From Candidatus Woesearchaeota archaeon (GTDB lineage Archaea > Nanobdellota > Nanobdellia > Woesearchaeales > JAWBMQ01): a DNA stretch of 64,000 bases. Position numbers and translations under genes: made by a program. Position 1 is the first letter of the stretch; each line of letters begins with the position of its first letter. Below, one piece after another: positions 43,962 to 46,473 of this stretch. The notes beneath the pieces were generated by a model. That model was given only the letters and a program-made list of their open reading frames with translations, did not search any database and was not told where the DNA came from. The DNA is taken from NCBI GenBank assembly GCA_038825875.1, contig JAWBOS010000003.1, positions 1,786 through 65,785 of the forward strand, given 5' to 3'.

Positions 43962-44642
43962 ATGGAAAACGAAAATTTTGAAAATTATATTTTGAAGTAT
44001 AAGAATCTAATTTTTTTCGGTTCTTCGCATGTATCTAAAAAAGGATATCATATAATAAATAGAATCTTTGATAATTATAAAATTGATGCAGTTGCTTTAG
44101 AACTTGATCTTGGAAGATTTGTTGCTTTAGTTTCAGACCAAAAACCAACACTTTTTAGAGTTTTTTCAATTATGGATATAATTGTATATTTTTTGGCAAA
44201 GATTCAGTACGATTTAGCTAAAAAAATAGGAACAGACGTTGCTTTAGATATGAAACTTGCAGTTAAAAAATGTATAACTGAGAATTTGCCAATTTATCTG
44301 ATTGATCAACCAATGTCTTTTACTTTGAAAAGATTAAGAAAACACATCACATTTAGATTTTTTATTAAAGTTATCAAAGATTTTCTTAGGGGAGAAAAGA
44401 TAAAATTTTTGGTAGATGATTTTTTGGATTTATCTTATGATGAAATAGAAAAGGTTTTGGATTTGATGAGAAAAAGATATCCTGAACTCTATACACCATT
44501 GCTAGAGGAAAGAAATAGGTACATGGCAAAGAAGCTTAAGAATTTGTTAAACTCATCAGAAACTATACTTGTAATCGTTGGAAAAGCACATGTTCCAGGA
44601 ATTTTAAAAGATCTAGAACAACTTAATCAAAAGAATCCTTAA
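43962..44642 (+). CDS. TraB/PrgY-family protein
   Basis: FFGSSHVS resembles the GTAHVS motif, and LVIVGKAHVPGI resembles VVGAGHLxGI. The size is 226 aa. Confidence 0.55.
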   Translation: MENENFENYILKYKNLIFFGSSHVSKKGYHIINRIFDNYKIDAVALELDLGRFVALVSDQKPTLFRVFSIMDIIVYFLAKIQYDLAKKIGTDVALDMKLAVKKCITENLPIYLIDQPMSFTLKRLRKHITFRFFIKVIKDFLRGEKIKFLVDDFLDLSYDEIEKVLDLMRKRYPELYTPLLEERNRYMAKKLKNLLNSSETILVIVGKAHVPGILKDLEQLNQKNP

Positions 44643-46473
44643 TTTCAACAGTATTTATGTTTTTTGAAACACTTCTTATCTCTTTACTTATTTCTTTTTC
44701 TTCATTTTCAGATAGATGATTTGTTTTTAGAATTATTTTAAATCGTCCACTTTCTGCAGAAGCATCCACAGCTTGTAACTTTACTTTTTCTCTTATCTTT
44801 GAAAGTATCTTTAAGAGAATTCCATCTTCATCCTTACCATAGATGTATATTTTTGAAAATCTTTGTTTCCATTTTAATGGTTCTTTTTTGAAGATTGGAA
44901 GTATGTTTTGACAATTTTCTCTGTGAACAACTTCACCAGTTTTTGTGTGAACAAGAACTATTGGTTCTCCATATTTGATATTACTGCAACAACCAGCAAT
45001 CTTCAAATCCTTGTTATGGTCTATTAGTTTTTTGATGGCTACTGAAGTTTCTTCCTTCTTGCTTTTTTTGCTCATTCCTAGTATTCCTCTTATCATTGAT
45101 TTTACACTGTTACTTTTAACAATAGATAACCACTTTTCATTTATTTGAGGTTTTGGACTTGTAACGATTTCTACAATGTCTCCTGATTTTAGTTCTGTAT
45201 TTAGTGGCATTTTTTGTCCATTTATCTTTGCATATTGAGCATGAATTCCAATATCTGTGTGAACCTTAAATGCAAAATCTAAAGCAGTTCCACCTTTTGG
45301 AAGTTCAATAGGATCACCTTTTGGGGTGAAAACGAAAATTTTTTCTTCAAATGCGGAAAATTTAGGCTTATTACTTAATATGGGAAGAATGGAAATGATT
45401 TGTTTATTCCAAAAGAAAAATTTATCTAGTTTATCTGCTTCTATATTTTTATATTTCCAGTGGGCGGCTACACCATATTCTGCAAAATAATGCATATCCT
45501 CTGTTCTGATCTGAATCTCAAAAGGTTTTCCCTTGTAGTAAAAACAATTGTGCAAACTTTTATAACCATTAGGCTTTGGATGTTGAATGTAATCCTTAAA
45601 TCTTCCAGGTATTTCTTCAAATTTATCCTTCATAATTTCCATTGCTAAATAACACTCTTCCACAGTTTTTGTTATTATCCTTAATGCAATAAAGTCATAA
45701 ATTTCATCTAATTTTTTTCCACTCTCTTCTAATTTTTTCAATACACTATAAAGATGCTTTATTCTTCCTTCAATTCTGTGTTGAGGAAAAAGGTTTAAGA
45801 GGATATTATGCAATTCTTTTAGCAAAACATCTGCCTCTTTATATCTTTGGTTTATGTCTTTGTTTATTTTTTCATAAACTTCAGGATATAGAATCTTTAG
45901 TGGGATGTCTTCTAAACTGACTTTTAGAGCATTAATTCCTAATTTGTGTGCTATAGGAGCATAAATCTCTAGGGTTTCCTTTGCTATTTGGATTTGTCTT
46001 TCCTGTGGTAAGTATTGAATTGTTTTCAAATTATGAACCCTATTTGCTAACCATATTATGAGCGTTCTGAAATCCTTTAAGCCAGCTATTAGTAGAGTTC
46101 TTTTAAGATTTAGAGAATAATTATAGTCTTCTGCTCTCTTTTTTAAATCGTTTTTTTCGTGTAAAAGCTGAAGTAATTCATAAACTTCAGGATCCTTATT
46201 TTTTATACTTTCTATCAATTTTTGACTACAGTGATGTAAAAGTGCAGAGTATATTGTTTGAGGATCTGAATTTAAATCATGGACGATTTTACTAACAGCA
46301 AGAGAATGACAAATTGTTGGGGCTCCTGAATGTCTTTTTGAATCCTTTAAATCATTATCTGCCAAAATATAGTATTCCTTTAGCTTTTCTAATTCTTGTT
46401 TGTTTAATAAAGTAAAGTAAATTTTGAGTTCATCAGGTTCGAGATAAATTTCATTCTCATTGTATTTTATCAT
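44623..46473 (-). CDS. Full-length RelA/SpoT homologue (RSH, a (p)ppGpp synthetase) with a degenerate HD hydrolase motif, plus TGS and C-terminal regulatory domains.
   Basis: The synthetase core [13 protein letters not shown]...[14 protein letters not shown]...[21 protein letters not shown]...[24 protein letters not shown] matches Rel/RelA. The TGS domain [30 protein letters not shown] is present. The N-terminal HD region has [14 protein letters not shown], but the HD dyad is changed to HH (ALLHHCSQ). Confidence 0.8.
   Translation of the reverse strand: [616 protein letters not shown]

What the first reader, a model, noticed from the sequence alone, without database searches (positions are those of the whole stretch)
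44623..46473. A long RelA/SpoT homologue in an archaeon, with an intact synthetase but an HD to HH substitution in the hydrolase motif
The synthetase motifs (GRIKHLYS…, [44 protein letters not shown]) and the TGS domain are highly conserved. The hydrolase HD dyad reads ALLHHCSQ, and the downstream ED(T) is missing, so the enzyme is RelA-like (synthetase-only). Long multidomain RSH proteins are rare in archaea. Host-like codon usage argues for an old acquisition. A synthetase-only alarmone enzyme implies that a separate hydrolase, or a novel turnover route, should exist.
Basis: partly seen in the sequence, partly recalled or inferred. Interest (0 to 1): 0.65.

Follow-up and report, generated by a model that had tools for sequence, protein, structure and literature searches.

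The report
Archaeal RelA/SpoT enzyme, dead hydrolase site
A DPANN (Woesearchaeota) archaeon carries a full-length bacterial-type alarmone enzyme whose ppGpp-making site is intact but whose ppGpp-degrading site has lost four key residues; the family is already known in these archaea, so only the dead-hydrolase variant is new, and it is a modest novelty.

Summary
ORF 44623-46473 (-) encodes a 616-aa long RelA/SpoT homologue with the domain order HD, SYNTH, TGS, zinc finger, ACT. Every scored synthetase residue is conserved.

The hydrolase site has four substitutions (RelSeq numbering): D78H, E81Q, D82K and D144N. Three independent alignments agree.

The host is an archaeon. The window carries split RpoB/RpoA, aEF-2, Topo VI, RFC and CDP-archaeol synthase. 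A 99.7% identical NCBI protein is labelled Candidatus Woesearchaeota.

The interpretation needs three corrections.
- The enzyme is not RelA. It keeps the Rel/SpoT-type RFKD motif and nests inside a DPANN "short-form" Rel family of about 630-650 aa, which lacks about 85 aa of the alpha-helical domain.
- Long RSHs are not rare in DPANN. Li et al. 2021 report them in about 42% of Woesearchaeota.
- The dead-hydrolase state is confined to a small clade: two 50%-identity clusters among 1.84 billion representatives. Similar degeneration occurs sporadically elsewhere.

The most likely function is a monofunctional (p)ppGpp synthetase, probably co-transcribed with lysS. No hydrolase candidate of a known kind lies in the 64-kb window. 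A TraB-family gene is a conserved neighbour only in this clade. I file it as a new member of a known kind, of moderate interest.

The parts
44623..46473 (-). Long RSH gene (616 aa): pseudo-HD, SYNTH, TGS, short linker, zinc finger, ACT/RRM
   Evidence: ORF. Pfam and NCBIfam hits. PDB sequence hits to Rel, RelA and SpoT. AF2 model with mean pLDDT 84.1, whose best Foldseek hits are RelA 5iqr, SpoT 7qpr and Rel 6yxa.
45934..46365 (-). HD_4 (hydrolase) domain, residues 37-180, predicted catalytically dead
   Evidence: Pfam HD_4, E 1.2e-25. The fold is kept: pLDDT is mostly above 90, and the catalytic half has target-normalised TM 0.86 to the S. aureus Rel catalytic domains. The domain diverges faster than SYNTH across the clade's deep split (HD/SYN identity ratio 0.71-0.76, against 0.95 +/- 0.08 in intact pairs). 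It is still conserved between the window protein and P0002 (66% identity).
46219..46236 (-). Residues 80-85, HHCSQK, in place of the canonical HDVVED (H77 kept, D78->H, E81->Q, D82->K)
   Evidence: All 117 other hits keep D78 and E81, and 109 of them read HD..ED.
46030..46050 (-). Residues 142-148, LANRVHN, in place of LADRLHN (metal ligand D144->N, N148 kept)
   Evidence: N at this position is shared only by P0001, P0002, P0003 and P0123.
45445..45768 (-). SYNTH (RelA_SpoT) domain, residues 236-343, catalytic residues intact, RFKD motif
   Evidence: Pfam PF04607, E 1e-37. G240, R241, D264, R269, E323, Q325 and R327 match all homologues.
45160..45339 (-). TGS domain, residues 379-438
   Evidence: Pfam PF02824, E 2.1e-21. 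It is the best conserved domain within the clade (65-83% identity).
44869..45006 (-). Zinc-finger / RIS region, residues ~490-535, with C495, C496, H517 and C521
   Evidence: These four residues are invariant in the 40-sequence alignment A1. Relatives carry PF28438 RelA_RIS. The region aligns to the CC...H...C of E. coli RelA. An HMM of the C-terminal region scores E 4e-23.
44629..44862 (-). C-terminal ACT/RRM-like domain, residues ~538-615
   Evidence: The AF2 secondary structure is beta-alpha-beta-beta-alpha-beta with pLDDT about 88-92. It aligns with the ACT_4 region of relatives. Pfam ACT itself is not significant on this sequence.
46477..47934 (-). Class II lysyl-tRNA synthetase; its stop codon lies 3 nt upstream of the RSH start (probable co-transcription)
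   Evidence: NF001756 at 661.7 bits. Junction sequence. The same order and spacing occur in P0002 contigs from two MAGs and a Logan assembly.
43962..44642 (+). TraB/PrgY/GumN-family gene, convergent with the RSH gene, 3' ends overlapping by 20 nt; a conserved neighbour in the HH clade only
   Evidence: Pfam PF01963 and TIGR00261. It is adjacent to the RSH in P0002 contigs and in the P0003/P0123 contigs. It is absent next to five relatives outside the HH clade.

Best explanation
The gene encodes a Rel-derived long RelA/SpoT homologue that has long been resident in a DPANN (Woesearchaeota) archaeon. It belongs to a DPANN 'short-form' family of about 630-650 aa, which keeps HD, SYNTH, TGS, zinc finger and ACT but lacks about 85 residues of the alpha-helical domain.

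In one small subclade (this protein, a 64% relative and a 44% relative), the hydrolase active site lost two of its four metal ligands (D78H, D144N) and part or all of the catalytic Glu-Asp pair. The domain survives as a folded pseudo-hydrolase. The synthetase site is untouched.

The enzyme is therefore most likely a monofunctional (p)ppGpp synthetase ([hS] in Atkinson's notation). It would transfer pyrophosphate from ATP to the 3'-OH of GTP or GDP, under control of its TGS, zinc-finger and ACT sensor domains. It is probably co-transcribed with lysS.

Shown: the domain architecture, the residue states, the archaeal host, the synteny and the clade structure. Inferred: loss of hydrolysis, retention of synthesis, the identity of the product, and the co-transcription.
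For: - Architecture and fold.
- Residue substitutions agree in three alignments.
- D78H and D144N are shared by all clade members, while the ED pair reads QK, EK or KD. That is the pattern expected after one inactivating event followed by drift.
- The HD domain is relatively accelerated across the deep split of the clade (ratio 0.71-0.76 against 0.95 +/- 0.08). It is still 66% identical between the window protein and P0002, as expected of a retained structural pseudo-domain.
- The synthetase residues match all 120 homologues.
- The HH clade is recovered in 100 of 100 NJ bootstraps, and the smallest clade enclosing it consists only of short-form sequences in 100 of 100.
- Archaeal genes lie on both sides of the gene. 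The gene order is conserved in independent Woesearchaeota MAGs. P0123 lies beside an archaeal ribosomal-protein cluster.
- Codon usage is host-like.
- From my own knowledge: in RelSeq, substitutions at H77/D78 or E81/D82 abolish hydrolysis. Jimmy et al. use the homologous D-to-A change to kill a small alarmone hydrolase (10.1101/575399).
Against: [quoted passage not shown]
- R44, H53, H77, N148 and T151 are retained. The changes D78->His and D144->Asn are conserved rather than random, so an altered but functional metal or nucleotide site cannot be excluded.
- The protein scores below the TIGR00691 cutoff (439.7 against 499.2 bits).
- A synthetase without a hydrolase is toxic in bacteria, and no hydrolase was found. 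However, only 64 kb of the genome could be examined.
Confidence: 0.65

Rival explanations
1. The N-terminal domain is still a working hydrolase with a remodelled metal site (His56, His80 and His81 plus Asn144, perhaps binding Zn, Ni or Fe instead of Mn). The enzyme would remain bifunctional, or would hydrolyse a different nucleotide.
For: The D78H and D144N changes are identical in all clade members at 44-64% identity. R44, H53, H77, N148 and T151 are retained. The domain is 66% identical between the window protein and P0002.
Against: The catalytic Glu-Asp pair is not conserved within the clade (QK, EK, KD), which argues against a preserved catalytic mechanism. The HD domain is relatively accelerated across the deep split. 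The clade also carries a 4-6 residue deletion just after the motif. Pfam's general HD model (PF01966) hits the intact relatives but not P0001-P0003.
Confidence: 0.08
2. The protein makes a different product, or does a different job, from classical (p)ppGpp signalling. Examples are (p)ppApp or pGpp synthesis, or a mainly regulatory ribosome- or tRNA-binding role. Archaea lack the known bacterial (p)ppGpp circuitry.
For: [quoted passage not shown] The alpha-helical domain is deleted throughout the DPANN family; in bacterial RelA-ribosome complexes that domain lies next to the ribosome-binding region (my own knowledge of 5IQR-type structures). Some long RSHs also make pppApp (PMC6491832; title and abstract only).
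Against: All the conserved synthetase residues, including those around the acceptor site (the RFKD...[10 protein letters not shown] region), are those of ordinary Rel enzymes. Nothing in the sequence points to a changed specificity.
Confidence: 0.15
3. The gene is bacterial DNA that reached an archaeal bin by mis-assembly or contamination, or it is a very recent transfer of no physiological importance.
For: Every RSH ultimately comes from bacteria, and the neighbouring lysS is of the bacterial class II type.
Against: Archaeal informational genes lie on both sides on the same contig. GC content and codon usage match the host. The same gene order recurs in three independent assemblies at 64% protein identity. 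A third lineage lies beside an archaeal ribosomal-protein cluster. The nearest bacterial proteins are only about 40% identical.
Confidence: 0.02

Closest known systems
Bifunctional Rel (Rel[HS]) of Firmicutes, Actinobacteria and Thermus (RelSeq 1VJ7, B. subtilis Rel 6YXA, T. thermophilus Rel 6S2T)
   Same: Same domain order. Same RxKD motif. 33-42% identity. The best sequence hit in the PDB is B. subtilis Rel (E 1.9e-88). The catalytic half superposes on the S. aureus Rel catalytic domains with target TM 0.86.
   Different: The hydrolase residues D78, E81, D82 and D144 are replaced. About 85 residues of the alpha-helical domain between TGS and the zinc finger are missing (54 residues against 141-146). 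The host is an archaeon.
RelA (RelA[hS]) of Beta- and Gammaproteobacteria (E. coli RelA, 5IQR)
   Same: A long RSH with a folded but inactive hydrolase domain and an active synthetase. The predicted functional state is the same.
   Different: Independent origin. The motif is RFKD, not ExDD. The NF008124 score is 259.8 against a cutoff of 728. The E. coli RelA N-terminal domain is too divergent to align before residue 121, whereas this pseudo-HD keeps most of the Rel sequence. No SpoT-like partner is known.
DPANN short-form RelA/SpoT proteins (e.g. '(p)ppGpp synthetase [Candidatus Woesearchaeota archaeon CG10_big_fil_rev_8_21_14_0_10_44_13]', P0004; reported at family level by Li et al. 2021, PMC8407392)
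   Same: Same architecture and the same deletion of the alpha-helical domain. The contexts examined are archaeal. In NJ trees the smallest clade enclosing the HH clade holds only such sequences.
   Different: These relatives keep HD, ED and D144 intact and have no TraB neighbour. The window protein is only about 36% identical to them in the HD domain, against about 61% among themselves.
Plant CRSH/Rsh4 and other sporadic hydrolase-degenerate long RSHs
   Same: Long RSHs in which the hydrolase motif has degenerated and the synthetase is kept. Other examples were seen here: P0150 (HH..EQ, 742 aa) and P0247 (HQ..EN, 642 aa).
   Different: Unrelated lineages and different accessory domains. These are independent events.

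Membership tests
Long RSH (RelA/SpoT homologue superfamily, multidomain class) | N-terminal HD-type (HD_4) domain followed by a RelA_SpoT synthetase domain | tested here: met
   PF13328 E 1.2e-25 and PF04607 E 1e-37, both above their gathering scores. The fold matches Rel catalytic-domain structures.
Long RSH (RelA/SpoT homologue superfamily, multidomain class) | C-terminal regulatory region: TGS, alpha-helical domain, zinc finger/RIS, ACT/RRM | tested here: inconclusive
   TGS is met. The zinc-finger CCHC residues are invariant. An ACT-like beta-alpha-beta-beta-alpha-beta fold appears in the AF2 model. The alpha-helical domain is largely absent (linker of 54 aa against about 143 aa). PF19296 is absent from all short-form relatives.
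Long RSH (RelA/SpoT homologue superfamily, multidomain class) | Score above the curated cutoff of TIGR00691 (spoT_relA) | tested here: not met
   439.7 bits against a cutoff of 499.2. The shortfall fits the missing alpha-helical domain and the divergent C-terminus; the match covers model positions 2-464 of 687.
Bifunctional Rel/SpoT [HS] | Hydrolase metal ligands H53, H77, D78 and D144, plus the catalytic E81-D82 pair | tested here: not met
   H53 and H77 are kept. D78H, E81Q, D82K and D144N are substituted.
Bifunctional Rel/SpoT [HS] | RxKD motif in the synthetase domain | tested here: met
   RFKD at residues 291-294.
RelA [hS] (proteobacterial subfamily) | Membership of the RelA clade (ExDD motif; NF008124 equivalog score) | tested here: not met
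   The motif is RFKD, not ExDD. 259.8 bits against a cutoff of 728. The protein nests among short-form relatives.
(p)ppGpp synthetase activity | Catalytic residues G240, R241, D264, R269, E323, Q325 and R327 (RelSeq numbering) | tested here: met
   All are present and identical to the 120 homologues.
(p)ppGpp synthetase activity | Measured pyrophosphate transfer from ATP to GTP or GDP | not testable with these tools
   This needs a purified-protein assay.
Small alarmone synthetase (SAS) | Single SYNTH domain without HD or C-terminal domains | tested here: not met
   A 616-aa multidomain protein. SAS models score weakly (NF053588 35.6 bits against a cutoff of 320).

The most novel reading that the evidence does not exclude
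DPANN archaea run a real, bacterial-derived stringent response on archaeal ribosomes, using a Rel that has shed its alpha-helical domain. In this Woesearchaeota clade the system has split, as RelA and SpoT did, into a synthetase-only enzyme and a non-RSH degrading activity. The only positional candidate for that activity is the TraB/PrgY-family predicted metallohydrolase, which stays next to the gene in all three lineages of the clade and next to none of the five relatives outside the clade whose contexts were read.
Probability: 0.08. Interest if true: 0.75.

Novelty: new member of a known kind. Interest (0 to 1): 0.42.

Why it matters
[quoted passage not shown] DPANN genomes changed that picture at the annotation level, but nobody has characterised one of these enzymes.

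A naturally hydrolase-dead, synthetase-intact archaeal Rel would be a convenient test protein. Does it make (p)ppGpp? Does it respond to archaeal ribosomes and uncharged tRNA without the alpha-helical domain? What removes the alarmone in a cell with a genome of about 1 Mb?

It is also a further independent case of the RelA-type [hS] state, which is useful for understanding why the pseudo-hydrolase domain is always kept. The practical novelty is limited. The protein is already in NCBI, the family is already reported in DPANN, and hydrolase-dead long RSHs are a known category.

Tried and rejected
- **Genome-collection scan.** I scanned genome contigs with an alignment of the short-form family. 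It gave neither a taxonomic census of the clade nor a test for a paralogue in the same genome.
- **TraB scan of metagenomes.** A metagenome-contig scan with the TraB neighbour returned one distant TraB (33% identity) with no RSH beside it. It added no further HH-clade loci.
- **LysRS linkage in the P0003 lineage.** I checked whether the gene upstream of P0003 is LysRS. It is not; it is TraB.
- **Hidden TraB next to intact relatives.** The unannotated 215-223 aa neighbours of the HD-intact relatives P0004 and P0008 are not divergent TraB proteins.
- **Second RSH or hydrolase in the window.** Domain HMMs run against all six-frame ORFs found no second RSH, small alarmone hydrolase or small alarmone synthetase. 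A Pfam survey of nearly all ORFs of 100 aa or more found no Nudix or GppA/Ppx.
- **Degenerate DNA pattern for the HH/LAN motifs.** I considered a collection scan with such a pattern and dropped it. The pattern carries too little information (about 29 bits) and cannot meet the tool's requirement of four plain leading bases.
- **Chimeric contig.** Rejected on synteny, composition and flanking genes.
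Full report

Yes. An ATG-to-stop ORF occupies 44623-46473 on the minus strand and encodes 616 residues. Pfam finds HD_4 (residues 37-180), RelA_SpoT (236-343) and TGS (379-438), all well above their gathering scores. NCBIfam's best model is TIGR00691 spoT_relA, at 439.7 bits. That is below the curated cutoff of 499.2, and the match stops at model position 464 of 687.

The best solved relative by sequence is B. subtilis Rel (6yxa, E 1.9e-88). M. smegmatis and E. coli RelA, S. 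aureus Rel, RelSeq, T. thermophilus Rel and A. baumannii SpoT follow.

An AlphaFold2 model built on a 40-sequence alignment has mean pLDDT 84.1. Its best Foldseek hits are full-length RelA (5iqr), SpoT (7qpr) and Rel (6yxa). The catalytic half superposes on the S. aureus Rel catalytic domains at 2.9 A, with target-normalised TM 0.86.

**2. The active sites**

In the phmmer alignment to B. subtilis Rel, the numbering coincides with RelSeq. The query reads R47 (R44), H56 (H53), H80 (H77), H81 (D78), Q84 (E81), K85 (D82), N144 (D144) and N148 (N148). A MAFFT alignment of the 120 best database hits gives the same assignment. So does an hmmalign of 150 further cluster representatives.

Among the 120 hits, only P0001 (99.7% identical to the window protein), P0002 (64%) and P0003 (44%) carry D78H together with D144N. 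All the other 117 keep D78 and E81, and 109 of them read HD..ED..D exactly.

Of the eight synthetase positions scored, seven (G240, R241, D264, R269, E323, Q325, R327) are identical in all 120 sequences, this one included. The eighth (position 243) varies among homologues and reads I here. The motif ahead of PKPNGY is RFKD, the Rel/SpoT-type RxKD, not the ExDD of RelA.

**3. The C-terminal half**

C495, C496, H517 and C521 are invariant in alignment A1. They align with the CC...H...C zinc finger of RelA. Relatives carry Pfam RelA_RIS and ACT_4 in this region. An HMM of the region built from the homologues scores E 4e-23 on the window protein.

The last 78 residues are modelled as a confident beta-alpha-beta-beta-alpha-beta unit.

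The alpha-helical domain is missing. Only 54-63 residues separate the TGS domain from the zinc finger in this protein and its roughly 630-650-aa relatives. Bacterial Rel has 141-146 residues there, and the short forms lack PF19296.

**4. The host**

The window encodes:
- RpoH, split RpoB''/B' and RpoA'/A'', NusA-KH, S12, S7 and aEF-2;
- Rad50, CDP-archaeol synthase, aIF2-alpha and diphthamide synthase;
- two RFC subunits, Trm1, an aIF-2B family protein and Topo VI subunit A.

These genes lie on both sides of the RSH gene. NCBI names the 99.7% identical protein 'HD domain-containing protein [Candidatus Woesearchaeota archaeon]'.

The gene's GC content (0.297) and codon usage (r = 0.93 against the other genes) are indistinguishable from its neighbours'.

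P0002 occurs in two NCBI Woesearchaeota MAGs and a Logan assembly with the same order: SLT ... LysRS-RSH-TraB-UPF0020 methyltransferase-Trm1-RFC-GlyRS-nucleotidyltransferase-RFC. P0123, a member of the P0003 cluster, lies beside an archaeal S13-S4-S11-RpoD-L18e-L13-S9 cluster. Contamination or chimerism is therefore effectively excluded.

**5. Where it sits in the family**

The database hits fall into two length classes. One is about 715-735 aa, with the alpha-helical domain; the named members of this class are bacteria, mostly Firmicutes. The other is about 630-655 aa, without that domain. Several short forms are named Woesearchaeota. The two HD-intact short forms with informative contexts are archaeal: P0004 lies next to Spt5-NGN, Kae1 and FtsZ, and P0008 next to RIO1 and archaeal-type pilus genes.

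In NJ trees the HH clade is recovered in 100 of 100 bootstraps. The smallest clade enclosing it consists only of short-form sequences in 100 of 100. NJ on Kimura distances is a crude method. I did not resolve the position within the short forms (62% support for a sister trio, P0017/P0028/P0074) or the bacterial donor.

An exhaustive HMMER search of 1.84 billion 50%-identity representatives with the N-terminal 215 residues found only two clusters with the HH..N pattern. The same search showed sporadic, unrelated degenerate hydrolase motifs in other long RSHs, for example P0150 (HH..EQ, 742 aa) and P0247 (HQ..EN, 642 aa). Loss of the hydrolase site is thus a recurrent event.

**6. Is the hydrolase domain decaying or retained?**

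Among HD-intact short-form pairs, the ratio of HD-domain identity to SYNTH-domain identity is 0.95 +/- 0.08 (minimum 0.73). It is 0.71-0.76 for P0003 against P0001 or P0002, and 0.73 on average for the window protein against intact relatives. Between the window protein and P0002 it is 0.95 (66% against 70% identity).

The catalytic pair reads QK, EK or KD in the three lineages, whereas His81 and Asn144 are fixed.

I read this as one ancestral inactivation, followed by drift at the residues that no longer mattered. The domain itself was kept as a folded module, as in RelA. The conserved His and Asn leave a small possibility of a remodelled site, which I list as a rival.

**7. Mechanism proposed**

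Inferred from family knowledge: the SYNTH domain transfers the beta-gamma pyrophosphate of ATP to the 3'-OH of GTP or GDP. The pseudo-HD domain serves as a structural or allosteric partner. TGS, the zinc finger and ACT provide regulation. Whether they dock on an archaeal ribosome without the alpha-helical domain is unknown.

The lysS stop codon lies 3 nt before the RSH start codon, here and in the P0002 contigs. Co-transcription with an aminoacyl-tRNA synthetase is therefore likely.

In bacteria a synthetase without a hydrolase is toxic (PMC3153485). It could not be tested, because only 64 kb of the genome is available. That stretch holds no second RSH, small alarmone hydrolase, Nudix or GppA/Ppx. 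Atkinson et al. also noted archaea and eukaryotes that have a small alarmone synthetase but no recognisable hydrolase.

**8. Comparison with the literature**

- Atkinson et al. 2011 found no long RSH in archaea, only a few small alarmone synthetases and hydrolases in euryarchaea (PMC3153485).
- Li et al. 2021 report RelA/SpoT in 69.0% of Diapherotrites, 41.7% of Woesearchaeota, 21.3% of Pacearchaeota and 19.0% of Nanoarchaeota, and infer acquisition from Bacteria (PMC8407392).
- Braun et al. [quoted passage not shown]

I found no paper describing the hydrolase-dead subclade or the deletion of the alpha-helical domain. The search covers open-access text only.

**9. Verdict**

This is a long RSH of the known DPANN family, with an independently evolved [hS] (RelA-like) state. 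It is a new member of a known kind.

Interest is moderate (0.42). The gene offers a good experimental handle on the open question of whether any archaeon uses (p)ppGpp. However, both the family's presence in DPANN and the category of hydrolase-dead long RSHs are already known. The specific clade is tiny, and everything functional is inferred from sequence.

Noticed in passing
window 43962-44642 (+); L001 11851-12558; L086 8754-9665: A TraB/PrgY/GumN-family gene is the immediate neighbour of the RSH in all three hydrolase-dead lineages. In the window and P0002 contigs it is convergent with a 3' overlap; in P0003/P0123 it is in tandem with a 22-nt spacer. It is absent next to five relatives outside the clade, and a 33%-identical TraB elsewhere (L092) has no RSH beside it. 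The adjacency survives a change of orientation and of the wider context. Its meaning is unknown.
   Followed up: partly
window 46473-46477 (junction of lysS 46477-47934 and the RSH gene): A bacterial-type class II lysyl-tRNA synthetase ends 3 nt before the RSH start codon. The same arrangement occurs in the 64% identical lineage but not in the P0003 lineage. Co-transcription of an aminoacyl-tRNA synthetase with a stringent-factor homologue is possible.
   Followed up: partly
window 45007-45159 (residues ~439-489 of the RSH); P0004, P0008 and other short forms: The whole DPANN short-form RSH family lacks about 85 residues of the alpha-helical domain between TGS and the zinc finger (54-63 aa against 141-146 aa in bacterial Rel). 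I did not find this described in the papers searched.
   Followed up: partly
window 48043-49383 (-); L001 2575-7413: An SLT-domain lytic transglycosylase lies upstream of lysS in this archaeon. In the syntenic MAG contig it is followed by a 1161-aa Peptidase_M23 protein. Enzymes that cut peptidoglycan, in an archaeon, suggest attack on bacterial cell walls.
   Followed up: no
window 19436-19915 (+): A nucleoside diphosphate kinase gene sits between the ribosomal protein S7 gene and the aEF-2 gene, within the RNAP-NusA-S12-S7-EF2 cluster.
   Followed up: no
P0150 (742 aa) and P0247 (642 aa; L089 735-2663): These unrelated long RSHs also have degenerate hydrolase motifs (HH..EQ and HQ..EN, with D144 kept). 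P0247 lies next to ThiF and LGT genes, so its host may be bacterial. They show that loss of the hydrolase site recurs.
   Followed up: partly
window 2352-4058 (+), 55379-57313 (+), 6350-8157 (-), 36999-38807 (-): Several sizeable ORFs (289-644 aa) have no Pfam or NCBIfam match. The 602-aa ORF at 36999-38807 has only a weak nucleotidyltransferase-domain hit, and it is conserved in synteny with the P0002 contigs.
   Followed up: no
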